DNA of 27,548 nt from a bacterium (GCA_021786105.1 JAJYNW010000019.1:1-27548); one strand, 5' to 3'; positions 1 through 22,482 are shown, counted from the first letter of the stretch. The notes: generated by a model from the letters alone, not told the origin. Numbers and translations are program-made.

Positions 1-857
1 GGATTACCGGAGGCAAATATATTGGCAATATCATTTTTTTGGTAATCCACAAAATACCAAACCGGATATAAATTAAGCGGCCACGACCACCAGGGAGAAG
101 AGTAGGCGTGAGTAGCTTTAAGATTAGTGTGGTACCACCACATTTGTTGTTGGAGTTGAGTAAACTGATCGAAACTATGGCCTAACAAAAAGAAGGGCAA
201 GTAGCAAATTAAATAGACAATCGGAGGAATAATCAGATACAGCAAAATTTGACGGTACTGATAATTTTTGATCAGCAGGGGTATAAAAATCAGGTAGGAA
301 TAAACTGCAGCCCATTTGCTGGATAGAGCTAATCCCAAAAGGATTGCCGAGAGGAAGTATTTCCGATCCAGCAAAATAAGCAATGCCGCCAGGGAAAACG
401 TAACATAGTAAATGTCATTCATACCAGTGCGGGATTGGACAAAATTCAGCCCATCCAGAGAAAAAACAAATGCGGCTATTAATGATGCTGTTTGATTGTT
501 AAGTAGTTTAAGACCGAGTAAATACACTAAATAGACGGATAGGATTCCCAATAACGCTCCTGGTAATCGATATGCCCAAGCATCTTCGGTTCGAAATATA
601 GCCATAGATATAGCCATAATTTCTTTTGCCAATGGTGGGTGAGTCCATTCGTAAGCCACCCCCGGCGGCGGGGTATTCCACCATTCCCATGCTTCTTTGT
701 GACCGGCTAAAAATTCTTTGGCAGTAAAAGCGTGATAAACTTCATCAAAAACATACTTGTTAGGATAGTCTAATCTGTATAGCCTTAGAAAGGCTGTAAA
801 TAATAAAATCCCAATCAGGATATGTTTTGAATTAAGCTTTTTTAAGAGCAATATCAT
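1..857 (-). CDS. Dolichyl-phosphate-mannose--protein mannosyltransferase-like glycosyltransferase (GT39/PMT, GT-C); 3' end runs off the window
   Basis: Missing from the ORF track because it is truncated. Translation by hand from ATG at 857: MILLLKKLNSKHILIGILLFTAFLRLYRLDYPNKYVFDEVYHAFTAKEF...YEWTHPPLAKEIMA. It has the PMT hallmarks FDE and HPPL, and the frame at the left edge matches (…IFASGNP). Confidence 0.85.
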   Translation of the reverse strand, partial: MILLLKKLNSKHILIGILLFTAFLRLYRLDYPNKYVFDEVYHAFTAKEFLAGHKEAWEWWNTPPPGVAYEWTHPPLAKEIMAISMAIFRTEDAWAYRLPGALLGILSVYLVYLLGLKLLNNQTASLIAAFVFSLDGLNFVQSRTGMNDIYYVTFSLAALLILLDRKYFLSAILLGLALSSKWAAVYSYLIFIPLLIKNYQYRQILLYLIIPPIVYLICYLPFFLLGHSFDQFTQLQQQMWWYHTNLKATHAYSSPWWSWPLNLYPVWYFVDYQKNDIANIFASGN

Positions 858-2055
858 ATTTGATGAGAATAACACTAATTAAAATAAAAATGGCGGTAGA
901 AATCAATGATAAGTTTTTACCATTAGTGTCCAAAAAACTATAGAGGAAAGGGTTATAAAGTACTTTTGGGAGTTTGAGAAAAATCTCATTGTAGTAAACA
1001 TACACGTAATACAAATCAAGGAAATGTAATAAGCTTAATGCTCCGGTGAGTGTCAATAGTAACCTGGAACGAAAAGTGACGGTTGATAAAATGAGGAATA
1101 TAAGGGCAGGATAAAGGTATCTCTCGTGTGCGCGGGTTGGCAGAAAGAAGAACCCCATGGCAGCAAGAGCCCCTAAGGTATAAATAGATAATTTATTTCT
1201 GAAGTAAAAGTATACTATTGTAACCCAGTAGCTTAAAAATAAGATGTATCCCAAATTTTGGTAAGATATCCCTTGCCAAAGTTTGTTATCAGGCAGCCAG
1301 AACCCCACTGCTCCCCACAAGTTATAAGCAAATAGGGAAGTATAAGGATACTCTCCGGCGGTATTGGTAATATGATGGGCGAGATTTACTAATGTTTGAT
1401 TGGGGAAAAAGGGCAGTGCTAAAATAAAAATTATCAGTAAACCCGGGACGAGCAACTTAAATAAGTTGAGTAATTTGAACTGGTTGATTAGAAAAATAGC
1501 CAAAACAGGTATTAAGGCTAATGCTTGAGGTTTGATTAGTAAAGATAGTCCATAAAAAATTGAGCCAAAGATTAAATTATTTTTTTTCAAACTAATTACC
1601 GTTATCAGTAAAAATAAAGTTAGAATGCTATCAACTTGTCCCCAGACAGCGCTGTTAAAAATGATTGCCGGGTTAAATAGGATAAAAAGAAACGCCAAAA
1701 AAGCCAGTTTCTCTGGAACAACTTTTTTAATTTGATAGAATGCCAAAAGAGCAATTACCAGATCAGAAATAATTGCCGGTATTTTGAGCAAAAGATAAAA
1801 ATTCCTATCAGGCATTTGCAGGAAATTTTTTAAAAAACCTAATACACTTAGAATATATAAATAACCCGGTGTGTAATCTGTAAAGAAATCCTTGCTGTAA
1901 AAAGTGACAAAATTAAAATGACTAAGTCGAATAGCCCAGGCAAACCAGTCGTTAACGTCGATCTGGAATCCAGGCAGCATCGAGAGGCAGAGTCTCAGTG
2001 CTAGTCCTAATAATAATGAAGCGACTAGTGCTTTGTCCTGAAAGAAATACTTCAC
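832..2055 (-). CDS. Polytopic membrane glycosyltransferase (GT-C; GT87/PIG-M/Gpi18-like mannosyltransferase)
   Basis: DYTPGYLY, KIPAIISD, FNPAIIFNSAVWGQVDS, KPQ and HERYLYP motifs with many TM helices. Start moved from 2163 to GTG 2055, which removes the overlap with the divergent gene and has TACAAT 7 nt upstream. Confidence 0.75.
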   Translation of the reverse strand: MKYFFQDKALVASLLLGLALRLCLSMLPGFQIDVNDWFAWAIRLSHFNFVTFYSKDFFTDYTPGYLYILSVLGFLKNFLQMPDRNFYLLLKIPAIISDLVIALLAFYQIKKVVPEKLAFLAFLFILFNPAIIFNSAVWGQVDSILTLFLLITVISLKKNNLIFGSIFYGLSLLIKPQALALIPVLAIFLINQFKLLNLFKLLVPGLLIIFILALPFFPNQTLVNLAHHITNTAGEYPYTSLFAYNLWGAVGFWLPDNKLWQGISYQNLGYILFLSYWVTIVYFYFRNKLSIYTLGALAAMGFFFLPTRAHERYLYPALIFLILSTVTFRSRLLLTLTGALSLLHFLDLYYVYVYYNEIFLKLPKVLYNPFLYSFLDTNGKNLSLISTAIFILISVILIKYDIALKKA

Positions 2056-2092
2056 TATTAATATTGTAAGCTTTTTAATAGAATTAGGGGAT

Positions 2093-4039
2093 ATGGGAGT
2101 TAATTTACTACTTTTAATTTTAGGTTTTATTTTTACATTCTTTATCCCGGGTTTTCTAATCATAGAAACTTTCTTTTCAGAGATGCCAATTATACAAAAA
2201 TTACCACTACAATTACTTACCAGTGTAATGGTTTCTACCTATGCGGTTTATGTTGTCAGCTTGGGGTTGGGCTTTTCCCGAATTTCTATATTACTGACCA
2301 TCTTAATATTTTTAGTCTGGTTAGTTATCTTTTTATCCGGCAAAAAATTTAAATTTAACCGAAACTTTTTACGGGAGCATTCAACTGCTTTATTTATATC
2401 TCTACTAATTTTTTTCTTATTTTTAGCTGCTCTTTACCCGGCTATTTTCTCTCGTTATCAGAACTATTTTGTAATGTCAGCTGTGAATTGGCAGGATACG
2501 GCGATGCATCAGTCAATTATTCAAACCATTTCTCAGGGAAACTTTCCGCCCCAAGCTCCTTATTTTAGCGGGCAGCCGCTTAATTATTATTACTTTATTG
2601 ATTTTCATTCAGCTATTTTGCAGACTCTTTATTCAGACTTCTTTCCTAGGATTTTAGTTTATGATAATCCGTTTTTTGTCCTAATTTTTTTTCTGTCAAT
2701 ATATGCTTTAAGTTTAACTTTCTTTAGGAATAAAATTGCGGGAATTATATCGGGGCTATTAACTGTTTTTTGCGGTAACTTGTTATATGTTAGATTTTTT
2801 CAGGATATTAGTAAGAGTTTAGACGGGTCAAGCAATATTTTGTTAACCATCAGGAGTATAGTTGCCAGCCATAGCTACACTTTGGATTATGGCAAGCTTA
2901 TTCAGATGGTGCCAATGGCTGATTATTTTTTACAAAATCGGCCGATGATGCTCGGGCTTCCGGCTGTCGGATCGGTAATTTTTGTGTTGGTAAATGGCTT
3001 TGAAAAAAATAGTAAAAAATATTTTATACTGGCTGGGTTATTGACCGGGATGCTGGTTAAGTTCCAGTTGTTTGCTTTTGGGGTGAGTATTTTAATTTTT
3101 GTTTTAAGCTGGATGGTTTTTGCCGGTAAAAATTTTAGCAAGAAATTATACCAATTAGCCTATTTTTTGGGGCCGCTAATTATTTTTGTGATGTTTACAT
3201 CACTACTTTCCGGTAGTAATAATTACGTAATTTCTACTCTTCTTACTAACTTTCGTTTTGGCCCTTGGGATGAGACTCAAAACCTTTCTTGGTATTTATT
3301 TTTCCCTTTTGCCAATTTTGGAATATTGTTTTCATTGTTTTTGATATTTATTGTTTTGGTAATCCTTAAAAAGATTAATCTGATAAAAAAGGTTACCCTT
3401 TTATTAATTATAGGAATTACTCTTTATATTATCCCTCATGTAGTTTTTTTTACCATTTATGATGGCGATATGCTGAAATTTTTCTATTTTGCCTTACTGC
3501 CTTTTTCGTTAATTTCTGGTTTATTTTTACAAAGGATCCGGCAGAGTTTCCGTTTTGGGTTGATTATAGTTATTTTGCTGATAGCAGCTTCTTCGTTTAA
3601 TAGTTTTTTGACTTTGGGCGGAAGTTTCTTTAATAAAAATGAAGGATATTCCTTAGCAGATAACCAGGCTGGGATGTGGATTAGAAGCAATACTGTGCCA
3701 AACTCAGTCTTTATGACTATGCCGACAGTCCATTCGGCAGTTTCAGATATTGGCGGAAGATTAAGAGTGCTATCTTATACTGTCTGGCCTTATTCGCATG
3801 GTTTTAACAGGGGGGAGGATAATGTGTTTATCCGTCAAGCTAATATTGAAAGCATTTATCAAGACCCCGGAAATACAACTAATGCCAGGAAAGTATTTAG
3901 TCTGTATCGTATTAATTATCTCTATTATGGCAGCGAAGAACGGAGGAGGTATCCTTCTGCGAGGGCGGTTTTGAGTCAACAAACTTACCTTCAACTAGTC
4001 TATAATTTTTCCGGAATACAAATTTACAAAGTATTATGA
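2093..4039 (+). CDS. Large polytopic membrane protein, probable GT-C glycosyltransferase (DUF2298/YYY-like)
   Basis: 648 aa with many TM segments, N-terminal loop WQDTAMH...FPPQAPYFSGQPLNYYY, and soluble C-terminal domain WIRSNT...YLYYGSEER typical of GT-C enzymes. Confidence 0.65.
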   Translation: MGVNLLLLILGFIFTFFIPGFLIIETFFSEMPIIQKLPLQLLTSVMVSTYAVYVVSLGLGFSRISILLTILIFLVWLVIFLSGKKFKFNRNFLREHSTALFISLLIFFLFLAALYPAIFSRYQNYFVMSAVNWQDTAMHQSIIQTISQGNFPPQAPYFSGQPLNYYYFIDFHSAILQTLYSDFFPRILVYDNPFFVLIFFLSIYALSLTFFRNKIAGIISGLLTVFCGNLLYVRFFQDISKSLDGSSNILLTIRSIVASHSYTLDYGKLIQMVPMADYFLQNRPMMLGLPAVGSVIFVLVNGFEKNSKKYFILAGLLTGMLVKFQLFAFGVSILIFVLSWMVFAGKNFSKKLYQLAYFLGPLIIFVMFTSLLSGSNNYVISTLLTNFRFGPWDETQNLSWYLFFPFANFGILFSLFLIFIVLVILKKINLIKKVTLLLIIGITLYIIPHVVFFTIYDGDMLKFFYFALLPFSLISGLFLQRIRQSFRFGLIIVILLIAASSFNSFLTLGGSFFNKNEGYSLADNQAGMWIRSNTVPNSVFMTMPTVHSAVSDIGGRLRVLSYTVWPYSHGFNRGEDNVFIRQANIESIYQDPGNTTNARKVFSLYRINYLYYGSEERRRYPSARAVLSQQTYLQLVYNFSGIQIYKVL

Positions 4040-11813: not shown

Positions 11814-12401
11814 ATGCTTGAGGAACTTTTTGTCTCAAGAGTCCGGGTCAAGATACTACAGCTTTTTTTATCTTCCCCCGGTGCACTCTTTCATGTTCGA
11901 GAGATAGTCAGACGTGTTTCTGAAGAGATTAATGCGGTGCGCCGCGAACTTTCCCGGATGGAAAAATACGGAATGGTGGCTTCAGAGTGGCGGGCTAACC
12001 GCCGTCTTTACCATTTCCGCAAGGACTATATTTATTACCGGGAGTTACTCGGTCTGGTAGTCAAATCAACCGGTTTGGGTGGGTCAATTATTAAAAGTAA
12101 GGCCAAATTAGGTCGGATTAAATATGCAATGATTGCTACTCGTTACTTGAAAAATCAGGCTTCAGAAACTGAGGCTGTTGATTTGCTGATTGTTGGTCAA
12201 ATTGTTTTGCCGGAACTGCAGGCAATTGTGGCTGATGAACAAGCTAAGAGAGAGAGCGAGATTAACTACTCTTTTATGGATGAGGCGGAATTTAATTTCC
12301 GGGTCAAAAGGCGGGATCCCTTTATTTTACGGGTAATTACTCAACCTAAGATTATGCTTTTAGGGGATGAGGATGATTTGTTATCCGGTGTGGTAATCTA
12401 G
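11814..12401 (+). CDS. Winged-helix DNA-binding protein with a degenerate nucleotidyltransferase-like C-terminal domain
   Basis: SRVRVKIL...HVREIVR...INAVRREL wHTH, followed by a VDLLIVG/EINY segment; strong SD AAAGGAGG. Confidence 0.7.
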   Translation: MLEELFVSRVRVKILQLFLSSPGALFHVREIVRRVSEEINAVRRELSRMEKYGMVASEWRANRRLYHFRKDYIYYRELLGLVVKSTGLGGSIIKSKAKLGRIKYAMIATRYLKNQASETEAVDLLIVGQIVLPELQAIVADEQAKRESEINYSFMDEAEFNFRVKRRDPFILRVITQPKIMLLGDEDDLLSGVVI

Positions 12402-17286: not shown

Positions 17287-17334
17287 AAACTTAATTCTAC
17301 ACCTTAGTTTAGTATGGTACAATTTGCTCTACTC

Positions 17335-18912
17335 ATGAAGTGGAAAATAGCTCCCAAAAAATCCAATGATTTAGTTGAACAGTTGCTGATTAACCGTGAG
17401 ATAAAAACTCCGAAAAAAAAAGAACAATTTTTTCATCCTAAAATTTCTGATTTTGAAAAAGATTTGGAAATCCCAGGAATAAGAAAGGCAACTGACAGGA
17501 TTTTGTTGGCGATTAAAAAAGAAGAGCTAATAATTGTTTACGGGGATTATGATGTTGACGGAATTTGCGCTTCGGCAATTTTATATAAAGGATTAACTTC
17601 GCTTGGGGCAAAAGTTTTACCTTATATTCCCCATCGGGAAAAAGAGGGTTATGGATTATCAAGGTTGGGTTTAGAGTCGGCTAAGGATTCCGGCGCAACA
17701 GCGGTGGTTACGGTTGACAATGGGATTGTAGCGGTAGAACAAGCAAAATATGCCAAAGAATTAGGTTTGGATTTAATTATTACTGATCACCATGTTCTGG
17801 GTGAGCAAAAACCGGAAGCGTACGCCATAGTTCATTCGGTTAAGATGTGCGGAGCAGCAGTGGCCTGGTGTTTAATTAAGGATCTAATTAAAAAAGAATT
17901 AGCCCAAGAACTTTTGCAATTTGTAGCAATTGCGACTGTGTGTGATCTTTTGCCGCTTTTGGATTTAAATAGGGCATTTGTTTTTGAGGGGTTGAGAATT
18001 CTAAACAAAACCGGAAATCCGGGTTTGCTGGCATTGATTAATGAATCGGGTATTAGTGCGGGAAATCTTAGGTCTTTTGAAATTGGGTTTTTGATTGGCC
18101 CGCGGTTAAATGCTATGGGCAGATTAGAACACGCCATAGATTCTTTGAGATTGCTTTGTACTAAGGATATTATTAAAGCAAAAAGATTAGCAAAACTCTT
18201 GTGTGATACTAACGCCAGCCGTCAGCAAATGACCATAGCTGCATTGGAACAGGCTAGATTGTTAATTAATCAGGAAAAAAAGATCCATGTTTTAGCCAGC
18301 AAAGAGTGGTCACCGGGAATTATTGGATTGGTAGCCGGGCGGGTCTGCGAAGAAACTTTTCGTCCAGCCATTGCCATCTCAATTGGAGAGGAAATTTCCA
18401 AAGGTTCGGCGCGATCAATAGACGGAATCAATATTGTGGAATTAATTCGGGAGCATGCGGATATTTTAGTTGATGTAGGCGGGCATCCGGGGGCGGCCGG
18501 ATTTTCTATTGCCAGCGAGAATGTCGAAATTTTTAAAAAAAGATTGGAAAGCCATCCATTAGTCTTGCCGGAAAAGGAAAAAATTTTGGAAATTGAGGCC
18601 GAGGTGGAAAGTGAAAAACTGACTAAGAGTTTAGTGACAGACTTACAAAAATTTGAGCCATTCGGCATGGATAATAGAAAACCAATTTTTGCTACCAAGA
18701 ATATGACAATTTCCGATATGAGGACAGTGGGGAATGGCAAACACTTAAAGTTTAAAGCAGATGATGTTGATGCCATTGCCTTTGGTATGGGCGAACAAGT
18801 CAGCCAATTAAAATCTGGCCAAATCATCGATTTGGCCTACAACTTAGAACTCGATACCTATAACGGCAACAATAAACTGCAATTAAAGGTTAAAGATATC
18901 AAGTTGTCTTAG
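17335..18912 (+). CDS. recJ: Single-stranded-DNA-specific exonuclease RecJ
   Basis: YGDYDVDG, EGYG, TVDNG, TDHH, PRLNAMGR, GSARS, GGHPGAAG and EPFG motifs; start ATG 17335 preferred. Confidence 0.96.
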   Translation: MKWKIAPKKSNDLVEQLLINREIKTPKKKEQFFHPKISDFEKDLEIPGIRKATDRILLAIKKEELIIVYGDYDVDGICASAILYKGLTSLGAKVLPYIPHREKEGYGLSRLGLESAKDSGATAVVTVDNGIVAVEQAKYAKELGLDLIITDHHVLGEQKPEAYAIVHSVKMCGAAVAWCLIKDLIKKELAQELLQFVAIATVCDLLPLLDLNRAFVFEGLRILNKTGNPGLLALINESGISAGNLRSFEIGFLIGPRLNAMGRLEHAIDSLRLLCTKDIIKAKRLAKLLCDTNASRQQMTIAALEQARLLINQEKKIHVLASKEWSPGIIGLVAGRVCEETFRPAIAISIGEEISKGSARSIDGINIVELIREHADILVDVGGHPGAAGFSIASENVEIFKKRLESHPLVLPEKEKILEIEAEVESEKLTKSLVTDLQKFEPFGMDNRKPIFATKNMTISDMRTVGNGKHLKFKADDVDAIAFGMGEQVSQLKSGQIIDLAYNLELDTYNGNNKLQLKVKDIKLS

Positions 18913-19165
18913 GACTTTCTTGGGGCCAACCATCTTCAGCTACAATTCCACGATAATTTTTGGGGGCGCATGGATGAAGATCTACTAGCTCACCGTTTGC
19001 TCTTTTGCCTACCGCTAAAGAATCCATTAAAAATTTAGGATTCATATTTGTAATACCATGTTTTCTCATATCTTTAAGACTTCTGATTTCAACATCTCCT
19101 TTTCCGTATGATGGTCTTATGGTAAATCCATTTCGAATCTCCGCGCCTTCTATTGTATTTGTCAT
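18899..19165 (-). CDS. Small hypothetical protein (88 aa), island left arm gene 3
   Basis: Strong SD AAGGAGGTG; aligns without gaps to the 19189-19425 product. Confidence 0.8.
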   Translation of the reverse strand: MTNTIEGAEIRNGFTIRPSYGKGDVEIRSLKDMRKHGITNMNPKFLMDSLAVGKRANGELVDLHPCAPKNYRGIVAEDGWPQESPKTT

Positions 19166-19188
19166 TCAATAAACACCTCCTTCCATAG

Positions 19189-19425
19189 TTAAATTGAGTT
19201 TTTTTCTTCTTCAATAAATCCCTGTCCAAACCATTCTCCTGTTAACTTGTTGAATCCGATAATAGGTAAGGTTTTACCTTTTGCGTTACGGTATTGCCCG
19301 TTTTCGTTATAGGCACCTTCTAATGTAACGGGAACGCTAACAGGGATTCGTTTTTTACACTTTCCCCATTCAGGAACTATATTTTCATCAATAAATAACT
19401 CAGGTTTTGTTTCAGGTTTGGCCAT
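19189..19425 (-). CDS. Small hypothetical protein (78 aa), island left arm gene 2
   Basis: SD AAGGGGAG precedes ATG 19425, directly after the stop of the upstream gene; preferred to 19449. Confidence 0.78.
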   Translation of the reverse strand: MAKPETKPELFIDENIVPEWGKCKKRIPVSVPVTLEGAYNENGQYRNAKGKTLPIIGFNKLTGEWFGQGFIEEEKNSI

Positions 19426-19426
19426 C

Positions 19427-19789
19427 TTATCTCCCCTTATATCTTTCAATCACTATATTTGCAGCGCGTTGATCAATTTGAAGTGTTTTGAGTTGATGTG
19501 TAATTTCTTTACATTGGGTATCTGAAGCGCCTCTTATTTCTTCGTTTAATCTCCGAATGTCCTTAGTTCTTCTTCTTCGTTCTGCTAGGATTCCTTGAAG
19601 TTCTCTATAACCTAAACGGCAGACATCTGGAAATTTTCGGACTACAAGTTCTTGCGCCAAATGTTCGATTGTTTTTGGTCTACGTGGAACAGAAAAATAT
19701 TCTGTTTGAGTTGACGATCCATTTCCGTATATAGCTTGTTCGGCTGTAGGGTCAAACCAATAGACTCTTTCTCTGTAATTTCTGCTCAT
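19427..19789 (-). CDS. Hypothetical protein (120 aa) with basic coiled-coil C-terminus, island left arm gene 1
   Basis: ATG follows GGGAGG-T7, so its SD is the right arm of the attenuator terminator. Confidence 0.75.
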   Translation of the reverse strand: MSRNYRERVYWFDPTAEQAIYGNGSSTQTEYFSVPRRPKTIEHLAQELVVRKFPDVCRLGYRELQGILAERRRRTKDIRRLNEEIRGASDTQCKEITHQLKTLQIDQRAANIVIERYKGR

Positions 19790-19815
19790 AAAAAAACCTC
19801 CCGTTTTGGGAGGCT
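19790..19815 (-). terminator. Intrinsic terminator of the branched-chain attenuator
   Basis: AGCCTCCC-AAAAC-GGGAGG followed by T7, immediately before ATG 19789. Confidence 0.85.
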
Positions 19816-19842
19816 GAAATTCCTTTCTTTTTTAGATAAAAT

Positions 19843-19935
19843 TTATCTAAAAAGACCTCCCAGGCAAGCTCCTCTTAGGAGCACGGTAAGGAGGGTAACT
19901 AAAACTAATAAACTTTCAATCAAAATTAAATTCAT
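19843..19935 (-). CDS. Putative Leu/Ile/Val-rich attenuator leader peptide (30 aa)
   Basis: MNLILIESLLVLVTLLTVLLRGACLGGLFR*; 14 of residues 3-20 are L/I/V and 2 are T; GGGAAAG upstream; lies between promoter and terminator. Confidence 0.78.
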   Translation of the reverse strand: MNLILIESLLVLVTLLTVLLRGACLGGLFR

Positions 19936-19952
19936 ATTTAACTTTCCCTAAT

Positions 19953-19998
19953 ATTTTAATTGGTTATTGACGTCCTTGTCAAGCTTTGATACTATAAT
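19953..19998. promoter_or_regulatory. Overlapping divergent sigma70 promoters
   Basis: Plus strand: TTGACG (19967-72), N17, TACTAT (19990-95), with overlapping TATAAT at 19993-98. Minus strand: TTGACA (19982-77), N18, TAAAAT (19958-53). Confidence 0.75.
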
Positions 19999-20004
19999 TT
20001 CTCA

Positions 20005-20088
20005 ATGAAAAGTCATCAACCAACTTTTTCTTTTTACTTTACATATTTTTGGTTTACTTCCCGAAAGGGGGGTTGGTTGATGTCTTAA
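20005..20088 (+). CDS. Putative Phe/Tyr/Trp-rich attenuator leader peptide (27 aa)
   Basis: MKSHQPTFSFYFTYFWFTSRKGGWLMS*; 8 of residues 8-17 are aromatic; ATG lies 6 nt after TATAAT, so it is probably leaderless. Confidence 0.8.
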   Translation: MKSHQPTFSFYFTYFWFTSRKGGWLMS

Positions 20089-20120
20089 AGACAAAAAAGT
20101 CTTGAAGATAGAAACTTTAA

Positions 20121-20146
20121 ACCTCCCGAAAGGGGGGTATTTTTTT
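20121..20146 (+). terminator. Intrinsic terminator of the aromatic attenuator
   Basis: ACCTCCC-GAAA-GGGGGGT then A and T7, 9 nt before ATG 20156. Confidence 0.85.
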
Positions 20147-20155
20147 GGAAAAATT

Positions 20156-20395
20156 ATGGCAGTAGAAACACTTGATAGACAGCAAGCGCAAATAGTTATA
20201 AAAGAACCAGTGAAGACTTTCGCTAAAGGCATGCAATATCTTGATGCAATTGCGGAATCGATTCGGCAAGGTAAAGAACCAGTAGTTATTGATGATACCC
20301 ATTATAGATCGGAGAATCCTTCTGCATCCCCACAAGTTATGACTAGAAGAGAACGAAGATTTTGGAGGAATTATTGCAAAGGGAGAATTCGATGA
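20156..20395 (+). CDS. Small hypothetical protein (79 aa) with Arg-rich C-terminus, island right arm gene 1
   Basis: MAVETLDRQQ...TRRERRFWRNYCKGRIR; ATG 20156 lies downstream of the terminator and is preferred to TTG 20102. Confidence 0.7.
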   Translation: MAVETLDRQQAQIVIKEPVKTFAKGMQYLDAIAESIRQGKEPVVIDDTHYRSENPSASPQVMTRRERRFWRNYCKGRIR

Positions 20396-20425
20396 AATTT
20401 TTATTGAAAGGAGGTGTTGTTTTAA

Positions 20426-20683
20426 ATGGTAGTAGAAGCAATCGATAGAGCTGGCGCGCTTGAGCAGCTATTAGGTAAAGGCGATCGTTGTGTTGACGTG
20501 TTGAAAAATGCTGATCAAAGATGTCAAGAAACATCAGTCGATCCCTGTGGAATTTGTAGAGTCCAGGATATGATTTCTCTTACACGGAATATAGAAACTG
20601 CTAAGAATATAGCAGAAATTTGTTGTCCAGCAGGGAAAATGGCTGCAAATTTAGAGCGTAAGTTAGCAGCAATGCCTAAGTAG
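20426..20683 (+). CDS. Small Cys-rich protein (85 aa), island right arm gene 2
   Basis: SD AAAGGAGGTG; RC-x7-CGIC...EICC. Confidence 0.82.
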   Translation: MVVEAIDRAGALEQLLGKGDRCVDVLKNADQRCQETSVDPCGICRVQDMISLTRNIETAKNIAEICCPAGKMAANLERKLAAMPK

Positions 20684-20734
20684 TTCTTAGGATATTTATT
20701 AAAGAAAAAGGAAGGAGGTGTTGGAAAAAATAAA

Positions 20735-20968
20735 ATGGTAGAAAAAATCGATCCAAGCGATCCGGAGGCAAGGCGGATTAGCTGGCAAGATAGATTACCG
20801 GAGGAGGTAGTTGTTGAGCCGGAAATAGATCACTCATCAGTTAATGTTATTAATCAAAGAATAAAGAGCAGATGTTGGGAGGAGTTGACTGGTAGTTGTG
20901 GTTTATGTATAGATCCTAGTGCAGGAGAGGTTTCCCAGAAATTAGTCGAAGCTTGTCGGATCCTTTGA
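20735..20968 (+). CDS. Small Cys-rich protein (77 aa), island right arm gene 3; possibly frameshift-truncated
   Basis: SD AAGGAGGTG; RC-x7-CGLC...EAC. Confidence 0.78.
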   Translation: MVEKIDPSDPEARRISWQDRLPEEVVVEPEIDHSSVNVINQRIKSRCWEELTGSCGLCIDPSAGEVSQKLVEACRIL

Positions 20969-21041
20969 AGCTTTTGATGGAACGCGGACTAACTGTAGCT
21001 GAACGGCCTGACATCCAGTAGTCAAAAGCTTGATAAAAGTA

Positions 21042-21097: not shown

Positions 21098-21121
21098 ACG
21101 TTTTTGCAAAGCAAAAAGGCA
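21098..21121. repeat. Solo copy of the REP-like repeat
   Basis: ACGTTTTTGCAAAGCAAAAAGGCA matches the reverse complement of 10011-10034 at 23 of 24 positions. Confidence 0.8.
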
Positions 21122-21165
21122 AGGTTCCGAATGAAATTTCCTAAAATCAGCAAGGAGGAAATTTC

Positions 21166-22482
21166 ATGAGGGTTCTTATTTTGGATTGTAACGAAAAAAT
21201 TGGTAAAGAAGTTAAAATTTGCGGATGGGTACATGTCCGTCGTGATCACGGAAAAATTATTTTTTTGGATATTACTGACAGGTCTGGCATTATTCAAGTA
21301 GTGGCAGAGGGTAGTAAAGTTCCTGATCTCCGTCCTCAAGATATGGTTTGTGTTACCGGTTCGGTAAAAAAAAGACCCGAGCATTTGTTTAATAAAAATA
21401 TCCCCACTGGTGAAATAGAAATCTCTGCGGAAAATATTGAAGTTTTATCAAAAGCCGCAGAGCTCCCTTTTGATATGGGCGGGAAAGAGTTGGATTTACA
21501 ACTTCCGACTTTACTGGACTATCGCTCGCTGACGTTGCGTCATCCCAAAGTCAAAGCTATTTTTAAAATTCAGGCCTGTTTGCTGGATGGGTTTCGGAAA
21601 GTAGCTAAAGATTTAGGGTGTACAGAGATTGTGGTGCCGACAATTGTGGCCGGGGCAACCGAAGGCGGAGCTGAGGTTTTTAAGGTAGATTATTTTGGCC
21701 ATAAAGCTTATATGTCCCAAAGTCCTCAACTTTATAAACAAATGCTGGTACCGGTTTTTGAAAGGGTGTTTACAGTGGCCAAAGCTTACCGGGCCGAGCC
21801 ATCGGTGACAACCAGGCATTTAACAGAAAGCACACAGATGGATATTGAGTTTGGTTTCATGGAATTTGAAGATTTATTGGATGTTTTGGAGGAGGTGGCG
21901 GTGAAAATGCTCAAAATTGCTGAGGAAGAATGTAAAGATGTGTTATCTGAATTTGGTATTGAAAAGGTAGCTTTCGGTAAAATTCCCCGCCTGACTTTAC
22001 GGGAATCTCAGGAAATAATTTTAAAAGAATTTGGTCGAGATAACAGAAAAGAAAAAGATTTAACTCCGCAGGATGAGGTGGATCTTTGTAAGTGGTCTAA
22101 AGAAAAATATGATAGTGATTTTGTTACGATTACTCATTTTCCTACTGTTGCTAAACCTTTTTATACTATGCCGGATCCGAAAAATCCGGAATATTCTTTA
22201 AGCTATGATTTGCTGTTTAGGGGGGTTGAGGTGATGAGCGGTTCGCAAAGAATTAATGATTATCAGCAGTTGATTGACAGTATTAAGAGCCGGGGGATGG
22301 ATCCTGATAATTTCCAGATGTATCTACAGGCTTTTAAATATGGTATGCCGCCGGAAGGAGGGTTTTCGTTTGGCTTGGAAAGAATCACTATGCATGTGTT
22401 AAACCTTGCCAATGTTAGGGAAGCGAGTTTGTTCCCAAGGGATATGGAGAGAGTGGATGTAAGATTAAGTAAATTGACCTAA
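21166..22482 (+). CDS. aspS: Archaeal-type (short, probably non-discriminating) aspartate--tRNA(Asp/Asn) ligase
   Basis: 438 aa, no GAD insert; OB-fold GWVHVRRDHG, TEGGAEVF, QSPQLYKQ, YRAE...RH and YGMPPEGGFSFGLER...LFPRD; SD AAGGAGG. Confidence 0.93.
   Translation: MRVLILDCNEKIGKEVKICGWVHVRRDHGKIIFLDITDRSGIIQVVAEGSKVPDLRPQDMVCVTGSVKKRPEHLFNKNIPTGEIEISAENIEVLSKAAELPFDMGGKELDLQLPTLLDYRSLTLRHPKVKAIFKIQACLLDGFRKVAKDLGCTEIVVPTIVAGATEGGAEVFKVDYFGHKAYMSQSPQLYKQMLVPVFERVFTVAKAYRAEPSVTTRHLTESTQMDIEFGFMEFEDLLDVLEEVAVKMLKIAEEECKDVLSEFGIEKVAFGKIPRLTLRESQEIILKEFGRDNRKEKDLTPQDEVDLCKWSKEKYDSDFVTITHFPTVAKPFYTMPDPKNPEYSLSYDLLFRGVEVMSGSQRINDYQQLIDSIKSRGMDPDNFQMYLQAFKYGMPPEGGFSFGLERITMHVLNLANVREASLFPRDMERVDVRLSKLT

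What the first reader, a model, noticed from the sequence alone, without database searches (positions are those of the whole stretch)
18899..21031. Twin back-to-back amino-acid attenuators (branched-chain and aromatic) controlling six small unknown proteins
Seen: a mirror-symmetric island between recJ and aspS. Each arm runs promoter, short ORF biased to one amino-acid class, alternative hairpins, U-tract terminator, one unknown gene, then a pair of paralogous small genes. Established: this layout is that of ribosome-mediated attenuators such as ilvL/leuL and pheL/trpL, which normally control biosynthetic or aaRS operons. Here the regulated genes (77-120 aa) resemble no enzyme or transporter I recognise, and the genome looks like CPR, a group that generally lacks amino-acid biosynthesis. 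Inference: a two-channel starvation sensor that reads charged-tRNA levels, which in an episymbiont would reflect host nutrient supply, and switches on two different small-protein programmes. I know of no described system like this, but I could not search.
Basis: partly seen in the sequence, partly recalled or inferred. Interest (0 to 1): 0.93.

Follow-up and report, generated by a model that had tools for sequence, protein, structure and literature searches.

The report
Twin amino-acid attenuators in a CPR genome
Two back-to-back leader-peptide switches of the classic attenuator type, one tuned to leucine and one to phenylalanine/tyrosine, sit in a tiny Daviesbacteria-like genome that lacks those biosynthetic pathways, and they appear to switch on small unknown proteins that are themselves poor in the amino acid being sensed.

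Summary
Window 19790-20146 carries two divergent promoters. Each drives a short leader ORF (Leu-rich, 30 aa; Phe/Tyr/Trp-rich, 27 aa), then CCUCC/GGGAGG segments that can pair 1:2, 2:3 or 3:4, then a U-tract terminator and three small genes.

Comparative data show these are real attenuators:
- The terminator motif occurs in 81 of 96 genomes of the family, with 0 hits for the reversed-pattern control.
- Relatives carry the same leader classes upstream of DAHP synthase, prephenate dehydratase, citramalate synthase, RidA, ileS and tyrS.
- A sister species has the same twin layout, with DAHP synthase in place of R1-R3.
- Ribosome-mask folding gives an antiterminator-to-terminator switch in 54 of 72 leaders, against 4 of 144 shuffled controls.
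- Cargo is depleted in the sensed residue. Leu-leader cargo has 4.6% Leu (background 10.5%). Aromatic-leader small cargo has 1.0% Phe (background 5.0%). R2 and R3 have no Phe or Tyr.

The window's genome has no DAHP synthase, citramalate synthase or chorismate synthase. The six proteins are near-orphans of unknown function; L1 models as a helical hairpin. The mechanism is classical, but the host lineage (CPR), the modular design and the hypervariable, residue-purged cargo are new. There is no expression evidence.

The parts
17314..18912 (+). recJ, the left flank of the variable slot
   Evidence: Pfam DHH, DHHA1 and RecJ_OB. It flanks the slot in 18 of 18 same-genus genomes.
18899..19165 (-). 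L3, 88 aa, third gene of the left operon, function unknown
   Evidence: ORF preceded by GGAGG 9 nt upstream. No Pfam, PHROG, NCBIfam or PADLOC hit. Only itself among 5.8 billion protein clusters. Leu 5.7%.
19189..19425 (-). L2, 78 aa (from the ATG at 19425), function unknown
   Evidence: Its start lies 2 nt after the L1 stop, with GGGGAG upstream. A distant homologue (38% over 45 aa, E 4e-5) sits directly behind the Leu-type leader in G007. The AF2 model is unusable, pLDDT 43.6. Leu 5.2%.
19427..19789 (-). L1, 120 aa, first gene behind the Leu attenuator
   Evidence: Homologues behind Leu-type leaders in G032 and G067. Only 10 representatives among 1.84 billion. AF2 pLDDT 78.9, with residues 40-120 above 90 as three helices. 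No PDB fold match, best E 0.9.
19790..19815 (-). Left terminator: segment 3 CCUCCC, loop, segment 4 GGGAGG, U7. Segment 4 is also the Shine-Dalgarno of L1, 7 nt from its ATG.
19829..19853 (-). Spacer hairpin between segments 2 and 3
   Evidence: MFE fold. This helix shows compensatory changes across 46 leaders; for example, one pair is AU:20, GC:13, GU:8.
19856..19895 (-). Segment 1 (CCCUCC, 19895-19890), an inner hairpin, and segment 2 (GGGAGG, 19861-19856). This is the 1:2 hairpin; segment 2 is complementary to segment 3.
19843..19935 (-). Leu-type leader ORF, 30 aa with 11 Leu, using all six Leu codons
   Evidence: A ribosome A-site at codons 11-19 (VLVTLLTVL) gives the 2:3 antiterminator for eight of these nine codons (codon 14, Thr, keeps the terminator). 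All other positions give the terminator. It scores 131.3 bits against the family covariance model.
19953..19982 (-). Promoter of the left arm (TTGACA, 18 nt, TAAAAT)
19967..19995 (+). Promoter of the right arm (TTGACG, 17 nt, TACTAT). The -10 element ends 9 nt before the leader ATG.
20005..20088 (+). Aromatic leader ORF, 27 aa (5 Phe, 2 Tyr and 1 Trp within FSFYFTYFWF)
   Evidence: Rfam Phe_leader 29.7 bits, full-length match but below the gathering score of 55. The closest relative, in G015 (MNSHQPKFFYTYFWFTS...), precedes DAHP synthase.
20057..20072 (+). Right arm segment 1 (CUUCCC), GAAA loop, segment 2 (GGGGGG)
20121..20146 (+). Right terminator: CCUCCC, GAAA, GGGGGG, then UAUUUUUUU
20156..20395 (+). 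R1, 79 aa, function unknown
   Evidence: ORF. No family hit. Atlas model pLDDT 0.52 with no usable hit. Aromatic content 7.7%, which is not depleted.
20426..20683 (+). R2, 85 aa, five Cys, no Phe, Tyr or Trp
   Evidence: GGAGGT upstream. 0 of 95 other family genomes have a homologue. Atlas model pLDDT 0.49. Cys22 reads as Arg in an independent assembly.
20735..20968 (+). R3, 77 aa (about 94 aa in assemblies with an extra G after 20957), no Phe or Tyr
   Evidence: GGAGGT upstream. 0 of 95 other family genomes have a homologue. Frame variant seen.
21166..22482 (+). aspS, the right flank of the slot
   Evidence: NCBIfam aspartate-tRNA(Asn) ligase, 483 bits against a cut-off of 353.

Best explanation
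The island holds two divergently transcribed, ribosome-mediated transcription attenuators of the classic trpL/pheL/leuL type.

Proposed mechanism (inferred throughout):
- Each promoter makes a short transcript that begins with a leader ORF.
- If the leader is translated smoothly, the ribosome reaches the stop codon and covers segment 2 (GGGAGG). Segments 3 and 4 then form the CCUCCC/GGGAGG terminator, and transcription ends before the first gene.
- If charged tRNA-Leu (left arm) or tRNA-Phe/Tyr (right arm) is scarce, the ribosome stalls on the codon run that overlaps or precedes segment 1. Segment 2 stays free and pairs with segment 3, the terminator cannot form, and RNA polymerase reads into L1-L2-L3 or R1-R2-R3.
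- On the left arm the freed segment 4 (GGGAGG, 7 nt before the ATG) also serves as the ribosome-binding site of L1. Termination and translation initiation are therefore gated together.

Context:
- Both switches belong to a modular attenuator family spread through Daviesbacteria-like Microgenomatia. In relatives this family controls first-step amino-acid enzymes and aminoacyl-tRNA synthetases.
- In this genome the enzymes are absent. The cargo is two sets of small lineage-specific proteins, built with little of the limiting residue so that they can still be made during that starvation.
- Their role is inferred to be regulatory or adaptive under starvation. L1 is a basic helical hairpin, and a neighbour species carries a LuxR-type HTH protein in the same position.

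Shown: the sequence anatomy, conservation, covariation, association with cognate genes, and the composition bias. Inferred: the actual response to starvation and the function of the proteins.
For: Anatomy in the window: promoters, leader ORFs, four complementary segments and U-tract terminators.

Ribosome-mask folding:
- On the left arm the antiterminator forms when the A-site is at codons 11-19 (eight of these nine codons; codon 14 keeps the terminator), and at no other position.
- Across the 72 leaders collected, 54 show an antiterminator-to-terminator switch, against 4 of 144 controls with shuffled upstream sequence.
- The ten codons before the switch are 47% Leu, 18% Val and 10% Ile in the Leu class. 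They are 33% Phe, 15% Tyr and 6% Trp in the aromatic class, and 43% Ile in the Ile class.

Conservation:
- The terminator motif occurs in 81 of 96 family genomes, and the reversed-pattern control gives 0. It occurs in 20 of 67 genomes of other families of the class, control 0.
- In 46 distinct Leu-type leaders aligned to a covariance model, 93.1% of cells pair, against 89.5+-0.3 in shuffles (0 of 500 reach the observed value). Twelve pairs show double changes against 4.2+-1.2 (0 of 500). Slid controls give 47-66%.
- The seventh antiterminator pair is kept in 43 of 46 leaders.

Cognate cargo in relatives:
- Aromatic leaders precede DAHP synthase (PF00793 in 3 of 3 tested; TIGR00034 at 454 bits) and prephenate dehydratase.
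- Ile leaders precede citramalate synthase (TIGR00977, 489 bits against a cut-off of 450) and RidA. In the window's own genome an Ile leader on contig C5 precedes ileS (TIGR00392, 671 against 621).
- A Tyr leader precedes tyrS (385 bits). A Thr leader precedes an amino-acid kinase.

Sister species: G015 has the same back-to-back pair. Its DNA is 77% identical to the window over 19787-20153 only, and DAHP synthase stands where R1 does.

Cargo composition:
- 28 small Leu-leader cargoes, falling into 20 or more unrelated clusters, average 4.6% Leu. The 9 aromatic-leader small cargoes average 9.0% and the background is 10.5%.
- Aromatic-leader small cargoes average 1.0% Phe and 1.4% Tyr, against 3.6% and 3.3% in Leu-leader cargo (Mann-Whitney p 0.0019 for Leu and 0.0004 for Phe+Tyr+Trp).
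- R2 and R3 together have 0 Phe or Tyr in 162 residues. None of 77 control small ORFs in the genome lacks both.
Against: - No transcript, 3'-end or starvation data exist. No RNA run holds the locus.
- Rfam Phe_leader scores are below the gathering score (29.7 and 23.3 bits against 55).
- The core stems are nearly invariant, so the antiterminator rests on complementarity plus one weakly covarying pair.
- 18 of 72 leaders show no switch in the simple MFE simulation.
- For the right arm, the unconstrained equilibrium fold is a nested 1:4 plus 2:3 structure rather than 1:2 plus 3:4. An extra 11-bp pairing (20013-20023 with 20071-20081) is unexplained.
- R1 is not poor in aromatic residues (7.7%). 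R1 lacks the start codon directly after the U-tract and has only a weak ribosome-binding site.
- R2 and R3 have no homologue in 95 related genomes. An independent assembly changes one R2 Cys and shifts the R3 tail.
- For the window alone, Leu depletion in L1-L3 is weak: 17 Leu in 286 residues, one-sided binomial p 0.056 against small-ORF background.
- Related genomes are not independent samples.
Confidence: 0.8

Rival explanations
1. Relic switches. The attenuators once controlled biosynthetic genes, such as DAHP synthase in the sister species. After those genes were lost the leaders persisted, and the small ORFs behind them (above all R1-R3) are young, non-functional or fast-decaying reading frames.
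For: - G015 has DAHP synthase where R1-R3 stand, and similarity stops at the gene start.
- R2 and R3 have no homologue in 95 family genomes.
- L2 and L3 find only themselves in the large protein search.
- R1 is not depleted in aromatic residues.
- Independent assemblies show a Cys-to-Arg change in R2 and a frame variant in R3.
- Structure models are of low confidence.
Against: - Random AT-rich sequence would give roughly 11% Leu and 5% Phe (my own estimate from base composition, not from a call). Instead the cargo is purged of the sensed residue across 20 or more unrelated clusters.
- R2 and R3 have 0 Phe or Tyr in 162 residues.
- All the ORFs have strong, well-spaced ribosome-binding sites and abut one another like operon genes.
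- The L1 family is conserved and folds confidently.
- Leaders and terminators are intact.
Confidence: 0.12
2. The short ORFs encode functional small hydrophobic peptides, such as type I toxins or membrane peptides. The hairpins would then be ordinary terminators or mRNA-stability elements, not amino-acid sensors.
For: The Leu-type peptide looks like a transmembrane helix with a charged N-terminus. Its N-terminal part (MSKVIAIDLKRVE) is conserved beyond what the four-segment structure needs.
Against: - The conserved C-terminus LGGLFR is simply the translation of segment 2 plus the spacer hairpin.
- Leaders fall into residue-specific classes (Leu, Phe/Tyr, Ile, Thr, Met, Cys, Tyr) that match the enzyme or synthetase downstream.
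- The biased run always sits at the structural switch point.
- The window's own Leu leader lacks the conserved N-terminus but keeps the Leu run.
Confidence: 0.03
3. The island is a mobile or phage-derived insertion carrying ordinary accessory genes, and the layout is incidental.
For: - The slot between recJ and aspS varies from 1.9 to 19 kb within the genus.
- The cargo is patchy: L1 was found in 1 of 60 relatives.
- GC content is slightly lower, 37.9% against 40.4% for the genome.
Against: - No PHROG or PADLOC family reaches significance.
- I saw no integrase or flanking repeats in the ORF lists.
- The Leu-type leader keeps the same position and orientation next to aspS across the genus and family while the cargo changes.
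- The island is found intact in an independent study.
Confidence: 0.03

Closest known systems
E. coli pheL-pheA and pheM-pheST attenuators (Rfam Phe_leader RF01859)
   Same: A short leader with a run of Phe codons, four-segment alternative pairing, and a GC-rich terminator with a U-tract. The window's right arm aligns to the whole Rfam model (positions 1-125). Relatives use the same leader class for prephenate dehydratase and DAHP synthase.
   Different: The score is below Rfam's gathering threshold (29.7 against 55 bits). The leader mixes Phe, Tyr and Trp. The organism is a CPR bacterium and the cargo here is three unknown small proteins. The E. coli leader sequences and the classical model are recalled, not taken from a call.
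leuL and ilvL leaders of enterobacterial leu and ilvGMEDA operons; the Leu-rich attenuator peptide of Staphylococcus aureus ilv-leu (PMC5794164; I saw only the search listing, title and start of abstract)
   Same: A hydrophobic leader of about 30 residues rich in Leu (plus Val and Ile) whose translation rate decides between terminator and antiterminator.
   Different: Here the Leu-type leader is fixed next to aspS and drives hypervariable small proteins of 52-146 aa, and a few unknowns of about 450-500 aa, rather than leu or ilv genes. Its cargo is depleted in Leu only.
mgtL/mgtP leaders of Salmonella mgtA/mgtCBR (PMC3641672; search listing only)
   Same: Leader-ORF attenuators that control genes which are not amino-acid biosynthetic enzymes.
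   Different: Those read proline or other signals for Mg2+ transport and virulence genes in a free-living enterobacterium. There is no set of residue-specific modules.
Polycysteine leaderless short ORFs of mycobacteria (bioRxiv 10.1101/834739; search listing only)
   Same: Short ORFs that begin at or near the 5' end of the transcript and sense one amino acid. Here the -10 element ends 6-13 nt before the leader ATG in 44 of 58 leaders with a good promoter. A Cys-run leader also exists in relatives.
   Different: As far as the abstract says, that system acts on operonic expression without the four-segment terminator design seen here.
T-box riboswitches
   Same: They share the task of reading tRNA charging to control aaRS and amino-acid genes by termination or antitermination.
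   Different: No T-box or other Rfam family reaches its threshold in the region.

Membership tests
Ribosome-mediated leader-peptide transcription attenuator (trpL/pheL/leuL type) | Short translated ORF in the 5' leader with a run of codons for the sensed amino acid | tested here: met
   Left leader has 11 Leu of 30. Right leader has 8 aromatic residues within 10 consecutive codons. The same classes appear in 72 leaders from relatives. Translation itself has not been shown.
Ribosome-mediated leader-peptide transcription attenuator (trpL/pheL/leuL type) | Mutually exclusive helices 1:2 and 3:4 against 2:3 | tested here: met
   Predicted folds. Helices are kept in 46 leaders with compensatory changes. 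The 2:3 core is invariant and complementary, and its 7th pair is kept in 43 of 46.
Ribosome-mediated leader-peptide transcription attenuator (trpL/pheL/leuL type) | Intrinsic terminator (GC stem plus U-tract) between the leader and the first gene | tested here: met
   19815-19790 (-) and 20121-20146 (+). The motif is found in 81 of 96 family genomes, control 0.
Ribosome-mediated leader-peptide transcription attenuator (trpL/pheL/leuL type) | Geometry: stalling on the regulatory codons frees segment 2, and a ribosome at the stop codon covers it | tested here: met
   In silico only. Window left arm, codons 11-19. 54 of 72 leaders against 4 of 144 shuffled controls.
Ribosome-mediated leader-peptide transcription attenuator (trpL/pheL/leuL type) | Downstream genes belong to the metabolism or charging of the sensed amino acid | tested here: not met
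   In the window the six proteins match no family. In relatives and on contig C5 of the same genome the feature is met: DAHP synthase, PDT, citramalate synthase, ileS and tyrS.
Ribosome-mediated leader-peptide transcription attenuator (trpL/pheL/leuL type) | Read-through rises on starvation for the cognate amino acid | not testable with these tools
   No RNA holder was listed for the locus.
Rfam Phe_leader RF01859 | Covariance-model score at or above the gathering threshold of 55 bits | tested here: not met
   29.7 bits (right arm) and 23.3 bits (left arm), both full-length alignments. The element works like a Phe leader but is not a member of that curated family.
T-box riboswitch | Match to the Rfam T-box model | tested here: not met
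   T-box is not among the 11 and 26 matches listed at E up to 10.
Type I toxin-antitoxin small hydrophobic peptide | Antisense RNA partner, and peptide conservation that is independent of mRNA structure | tested here: inconclusive
   I did not search for an antisense RNA. The conserved peptide C-terminus coincides with RNA segments. The conserved N-terminus in relatives is unexplained.

The most novel reading that the evidence does not exclude
Daviesbacteria-like CPR bacteria carry a lineage-wide 'starvation cassette' system. Residue-specific attenuator modules share one CCUCCC/GGGAGG design and sit at fixed chromosomal slots such as recJ-aspS. They drive rapidly exchanged small effector or regulator proteins, and orphan first-step enzymes (DAHP synthase without chorismate synthase, citramalate synthase without isopropylmalate dehydrogenase). 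All of this cargo is purged of the limiting residue. In an episymbiont that cannot make amino acids, the products would act on the host or on the symbiont's own growth programme to restore supply. This would be a starvation-to-host-manipulation circuit read directly from tRNA charging.
Probability: 0.2. Interest if true: 0.9.

Novelty: new variant of a known kind. Interest (0 to 1): 0.75.

Why it matters
Gene regulation in CPR/Patescibacteria is almost unexplored. These organisms are thought to depend on hosts for amino acids. This locus suggests a Daviesbacteria-like lineage uses the textbook ribosome-stalling attenuator as a general, modular sensor for at least seven amino acids.

The modules control synthetases and isolated first-step enzymes. 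They also control a fast-turning-over pool of small proteins that are built to be translatable during the very starvation that induces them. That yields a concrete, testable list of candidate starvation-response proteins in uncultured episymbionts. It also yields a compact natural design in which the terminator's 3' arm doubles as the ribosome-binding site.

In four full-text searches I found no paper that links leader-peptide attenuation with CPR, Patescibacteria or Microgenomates. Subscription journals and supplementary files were not searchable.

Tried and rejected
Family assignment of the six proteins:
- Pfam, PHROGs, NCBIfam and PADLOC gave nothing above threshold. The best values were E 0.002-0.2 on short stretches.
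- Large-database word search for L1, L3 and L2 found only the query itself. The tool covers only proteins of similar length.
- ESM Atlas for R2 and R1 gave low-confidence models and no usable hit.
- The AF2 model of L2 with 4 rows had pLDDT 43.6 and I discarded it.
- Foldseek of the L1 model against the PDB gave a best E of 0.9, only generic helical bundles.

Ideas rejected:
- Paralogy of the small genes is rejected.
- The idea that the small genes are fragments of lost enzymes is rejected at the sensitivity used. tblastn of all cargo proteins of relatives, including 11 DAHP synthases, prephenate dehydratase and citramalate synthase, against the whole genome found nothing on contig C7 other than the window's own genes and the L2 relative.
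- Rfam membership is rejected: scores are below threshold.

Expression and population data:
- No RNA holder was listed. One metatranscriptome of the same study had no contig on the locus. This says nothing either way.
- Variants in other assemblies were too few to test selection: one synonymous change in R1, one Cys-to-Arg change in R2, and one 1-nt insertion in R3.

Tools not used or closed:
- I did not use complex prediction, because I claim no binding.

Rows dropped or reassigned before counts:
- In some searches I reassigned nine leaders between classes by eye, from the peptide alone. I dropped one duplicate (L046:34-186, same as L059) and one spurious ORF (L038:498-645).
- Cargo ORFs shorter than 40 aa were left out of the composition and spacing counts.
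- Loci L076-L095 entered only the covariance-model alignment, not the composition test.

Full report
**What is in the window**

Between recJ (17314-18912, +; DHH, DHHA1 and RecJ_OB domains) and aspS (21166-22482, +; aspartate-tRNA(Asn) ligase) lie six small, closely packed ORFs in two divergent sets. L1 (120 aa), L2 (78 aa) and L3 (88 aa) are on the minus strand. R1 (79 aa), R2 (85 aa) and R3 (77 aa) are on the plus strand.

The 366 bases between the two sets hold two overlapping sigma-70-like promoters (19982-19953 minus; 19967-19995 plus) and two short ORFs. One is MNLILIESLLVLVTLLTVLLRGACLGGLFR (19935-19843, minus; 11 Leu). The other is MKSHQPTFSFYFTYFWFTSRKGGWLMS (20005-20088, plus; 5 Phe, 2 Tyr and 2 Trp).

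Each short ORF is followed by a hairpin with a U-tract, at 19815-19790 and 20121-20146. Terminator-like sites number 10 in this 3-kb region against 2.8+-1.6 in shuffles. Promoter-like sites as a class are not enriched, 8 against 7.4+-2.7.

Both leader RNAs fold better than dinucleotide shuffles, z -4.27 and -2.82. On each arm there are four hexamers, CCUCC-like, GGGAGG-like, CCUCCC and GGGAGG/GGGGGG. They can pair 1:2 and 3:4, or 2:3.

The claimed paralogy of the distal gene pairs is not there. The best blastp pair is R2/R3, E 0.023 over 13 residues.

**Own genome and a first relative**

The terminator motif occurs only three times in the 1.04-Mb genome: the two sites above, and one on contig C5. 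On C5 a promoter and the leader MNTQRLATITAIIITSPAGGS precede a 99-aa Cys-containing ORF and then ileS (TIGR00392, 671 bits against a cut-off of 621). An Ile/Thr-rich leader in front of isoleucyl-tRNA synthetase is what a true attenuator would look like.

L1 has a homologue in only 1 of 60 relatives, G032. That locus is syntenic (cca, recJ, island, aspS) and contains three units on one strand:
- a Leu-rich leader ending in LGGLFR, followed by the L1 homologue;
- the leader MKIARQIFVIIIDHPLGRIG, followed by citramalate synthase (TIGR00977, 489 bits against 450);
- the leader MNISRQTWFSFFYFTFQKEGGLK, followed by a 99-aa unknown.

**The family-wide picture**

The pattern CCTCCC-N3-5-GGGRGG-N0-2-T6 is present in 81 of 96 genomes of the family. 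The reversed pattern gives no hit in any of them. Hits often come two or three in a row on one strand.

In the loci fetched, almost every hit has a short ORF that ends about 50 nt upstream. I collected 72 distinct leaders:
- 32 Leu-type (consensus MSK.I.IDLKRVE..LL.VLL.GAFLGGLFR);
- 26 aromatic (for example MNLLKIWYFYFTFAFRKEGGLLG);
- 9 Ile-type (IIGIIIT, VIIID);
- one each with a Met run (KMMMLEM) and a Thr run (KKTTKTT), two with a Cys run (PPCCCSS), and one unclear.

I reassigned nine leaders between classes by eye from the peptide, and dropped one duplicate and one spurious ORF.

The genes behind them:
- Aromatic leaders precede DAHP synthase (PF00793 in 3 of 3 tested; TIGR00034 at 454 bits) and prephenate dehydratase with an ACT domain.
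- Ile leaders precede citramalate synthase or another HMGL-like protein, and RidA.
- The Thr leader precedes an amino-acid kinase.
- The Met leader precedes a protein with a SAM hydroxide adenosyltransferase C-terminal domain.
- The Cys leader precedes a methyltransferase.

In other families of the same class the motif occurs in 20 of 67 genomes, control 0. Among eight loci I inspected there, I found:
- a YYY leader in front of tyrS (TIGR00234, 385 bits);
- aromatic leaders in front of 99-aa and about 70-aa unknowns;
- a possible leader in front of a hisC-like aminotransferase (275.4 bits against a cut-off of 276.55).

An exact 20-mer from the Leu-type leader occurs in 20 loci among 185,579 species genomes. 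All are in MAGs titled Candidatus Daviesbacteria, Microgenomates or Patescibacteria, or in auto-labelled MAGs whose contig lengths equal those of the relatives already in hand. The CPR assignment is therefore supported.

**The slot in the genus**

All 18 same-genus genomes have recJ and aspS flanking an island of about 1.9 to 19 kb. The Leu-type leader sits next to aspS, divergent from it, in almost all of them. Its first gene differs from species to species: 52-146 aa proteins that fall mostly into singletons on clustering. One is a LuxR/GerE HTH protein (28.5 bits against 23.5).

Three species (G015, G001, G004) have the same back-to-back Leu plus aromatic pair as the window. G015 is 77% identical to the window over 19787-20153, that is, over the leaders only. 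Its aromatic leader MNSHQPKFFYTYFWFTS... precedes a 271-aa DAHP synthase (PF00793, E 2.7e-55). Its NCBIfam best hit is the Bacillus-type DAHP synthase, at 244 bits and below the cut-off of 268.

The window's genome has no DAHP synthase, prephenate dehydratase or citramalate synthase by tblastn with the relatives' proteins, and none by PF00793. The right-arm switch is thus an aromatic attenuator whose usual cargo has been replaced.

**Structure tests**

A covariance model built from 32 Leu-type leaders finds 46 distinct ones at 77-167 bits; the window's scores 131 bits. The same model also picks up the other classes at 34-68 bits, including the window's right arm at 44.4 bits (E 4e-6). This points to one shared architecture.

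On the 46 sequences:
- 93.1% of cells form standard pairs, against 89.5+-0.3 in shuffles (0 of 500 reach the observed value).
- Twelve pairs have changes on both sides, against 4.2+-1.2 (0 of 500).
- Slid controls give 47-66%.
- The alignment was fitted to the model, which favours the structure.

The 1:2 outer stem and the terminator hardly vary. That is expected if each hexamer has to pair with two partners. For the antiterminator the six core pairs are invariant, and the seventh is kept in 43 of 46 (shuffles 38.9+-1.4; 10 of 2000 reach it). For the aromatic class, RNAalifold finds the 1:2 stem and the terminator, with 5 of 12 pairs showing a double change.

**Ribosome-mask simulation**

I forbade pairing of all bases up to 12 nt past each A-site codon and refolded. 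In the window's left arm the 2:3 antiterminator replaces the terminator when the A-site is at codons 11-19 (VLVTLLTVL), for eight of these nine codons; codon 14 (Thr) keeps the terminator. Free RNA and a ribosome at any other codon or at the stop give the terminator. In the right arm the switch falls at the end of the aromatic run.

Over all 72 leaders, 54 show an antiterminator-to-terminator switch, against 4 of 144 controls with shuffled upstream sequence. The ten codons before the switch are:
- 47% Leu, 18% Val and 10% Ile in the Leu class;
- 33% Phe, 15% Tyr and 6% Trp in the aromatic class;
- 43% Ile in the Ile class.

These are equilibrium folds, not kinetics. For the right arm the unconstrained MFE is a nested 1:4 plus 2:3 structure. 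An additional 11-bp pairing between codons 3-7 and 23-26 of the leader is shared with G015 and G004 and remains unexplained.

**Cargo composition**

If the cargo has to be made while one amino acid is scarce, it should use little of that amino acid. The 28 small first genes behind Leu-type leaders average 4.6% Leu, with Ile at 8.1% and Val at 5.9%, neither depleted. This compares with 10.5% Leu in 652 long ORFs of the genome and 9.0% in the 9 small cargoes of aromatic leaders.

The aromatic-leader small cargoes average 1.0% Phe and 1.4% Tyr, against 5.0% and 3.3% in the background and 3.6% and 3.3% in Leu-leader cargo. Mann-Whitney p is 0.0019 for Leu and 0.0004 for Phe+Tyr+Trp. Ile-leader cargo is lower in Ile, 5.3-5.8% against 7.6%.

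In the window:
- L1, L2 and L3 have 6.7%, 5.2% and 5.7% Leu. Taken alone this is weak: 17 Leu in 286 residues, p 0.056 against a small-ORF background of 8.8%.
- R2 and R3 have no Phe or Tyr in 162 residues. None of 77 SD-preceded small ORFs elsewhere in the genome lacks both.
- R1 is not depleted (7.7% aromatic).

Relatives are not independent, but the Leu-leader cargo falls into 20 or more unrelated clusters. This reciprocal bias is the best evidence that the small ORFs are real genes expressed under the matching starvation.

**Further design features**

In 22 of 66 units the start codon of the first gene lies within 3 nt of the U-tract. The 3' arm of the terminator (GGGAGG) then sits 7 nt upstream as the ribosome-binding site, as for L1. 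Many others have an ATG at that place opening a 3-4 codon mini-ORF (MEK or MEKI), followed by a second ribosome-binding site and the real start. The right arm of the window lacks this ATG.

Of the 72 leaders, 58 have a promoter match of at least 9 of 12 positions. In 44 of those 58 the -10 hexamer ends 6-13 nt before the leader ATG. This leaves room for only a very short 5' leader. The transcription start is inferred, not mapped.

**The six proteins**

No library gives a significant match.

- L1 belongs to a tiny family: 10 representatives among 1.84 billion, 92-120 aa. With that alignment AF2 gives pLDDT 78.9. The N-terminal 32 residues are disordered and residues 40-120 form three confident helices, with a conserved basic ERRxR stretch. 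Foldseek finds no specific fold.
- L2 has a distant relative directly behind the Leu leader of G007. Its model is unusable.
- L3 finds only itself.
- R2 and R3 have no homologue in 95 family genomes.

Function therefore remains open. A regulatory role is suggested only by L1's shape and by the HTH protein found at the same position in G001.

**Pathway context**

DAHP synthase is present in G015, G006 and G017, but chorismate synthase is found in 0 of 5 genomes searched. Isopropylmalate dehydrogenase is found in 0 of 5, including G032, which has citramalate synthase. The named control genomes gave 14 of 14 for both families. Completeness of the five genomes is 84-96%. These lineages thus seem to keep only attenuator-controlled first-step enzymes, which is unexplained.

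**Independent occurrence**

The whole island is found in one contig of a different study, with one substitution and one inserted base. No RNA data cover it.

**Comparison with known systems**

The anatomy and the inferred logic are those of enterobacterial pheL, leuL, ilvL and thrL; this knowledge is recalled. Membership in Rfam Phe_leader fails on score. Attenuators in front of non-biosynthetic genes (mgtCBR) and leaderless Cys-sensing short ORFs in mycobacteria are in print; I saw only the search listings.

Four full-text searches found no paper joining leader-peptide attenuation with CPR, Patescibacteria or Microgenomates. Supplements and subscription journals were not searchable.

**Verdict**

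This is a real feature with a classical mechanism in a new setting. It has a new kind of cargo and a shared modular design, so I file it as a new variant of a known kind. It is unproven about what they switch on.

Noticed in passing
G000 contig C5 (locus L003) 120-3572: A third attenuator in the same genome. A promoter and the leader MNTQRLATITAIIITSPAGGS (178-243) are followed by a terminator (279-303), a 99-aa Cys-containing ORF of no known family (329-628), and then ileS (687-3572).
   Followed up: partly
G015, G006, G017 (DAHP synthase loci L056, L067, L068) and G032 (L004 10527-12089): Relatives carry attenuator-controlled first-step enzymes. DAHP synthase is present, but chorismate synthase is found in 0 of 5 genomes. 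Citramalate synthase is present, but isopropylmalate dehydrogenase is found in 0 of 5. Genome completeness is 84-96%.
   Followed up: partly
Many loci, e.g. L004 around 12089-12101, L026, L022; L003 304-328: Directly after the terminator's U-tract an ATG often opens a 3-4 codon mini-ORF (MEK or MEKI). Its end overlaps or abuts a second ribosome-binding site and the real start codon. The layout looks like translational coupling to the terminator's GGGAGG arm.
   Followed up: partly
window 20013-20023 with 20071-20081: An 11-bp perfect pairing joins codons 3-7 and codons 23-26 of the aromatic leader. It is shared with G015 and, with one G-U pair, with G004, but not with G001. It would compete with the antiterminator, and its role is unclear.
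   Followed up: partly
window 21098-21130: A 33-nt element (ACGTTTTTGC.AAGCAAAAAGGCAAGGTTCCGA) containing a small hairpin recurs at 97% identity on C5:18009-18041, just after a tRNA gene. Shorter copies recur on C7:10011-10034, C18 and C26, and in other genus members.
   Followed up: partly
window 21131-21167: A 12-nt inverted repeat (GAAATTTCCT.. / ..AGGAGGAAATTTC) encloses the Shine-Dalgarno of aspS right up to its ATG. This may be translational control of aspS.
   Followed up: no
window 20957 and 20489: Contigs of an independent study carry an extra G after 20957, which would extend R3 to about 94 aa ending at 21021. They also carry T>C at 20489, which changes Cys22 of R2 to Arg.
   Followed up: partly
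72 leaders in loci L003-L075 and the window: In 44 of 58 leaders with a good promoter match, the -10 hexamer ends only 6-13 nt before the leader ATG. The leader peptides may therefore be translated from leaderless or nearly leaderless transcripts.
   Followed up: partly
The titles look like automatic mislabels.
   Followed up: no
Leu-type leaders, alignment A2 columns 17-60: The N-terminal part of the Leu-type leader peptide (MSKVIAIDLKRVE) is conserved across the family beyond what the four-segment structure needs. The window's own leader lacks it.
   Followed up: no
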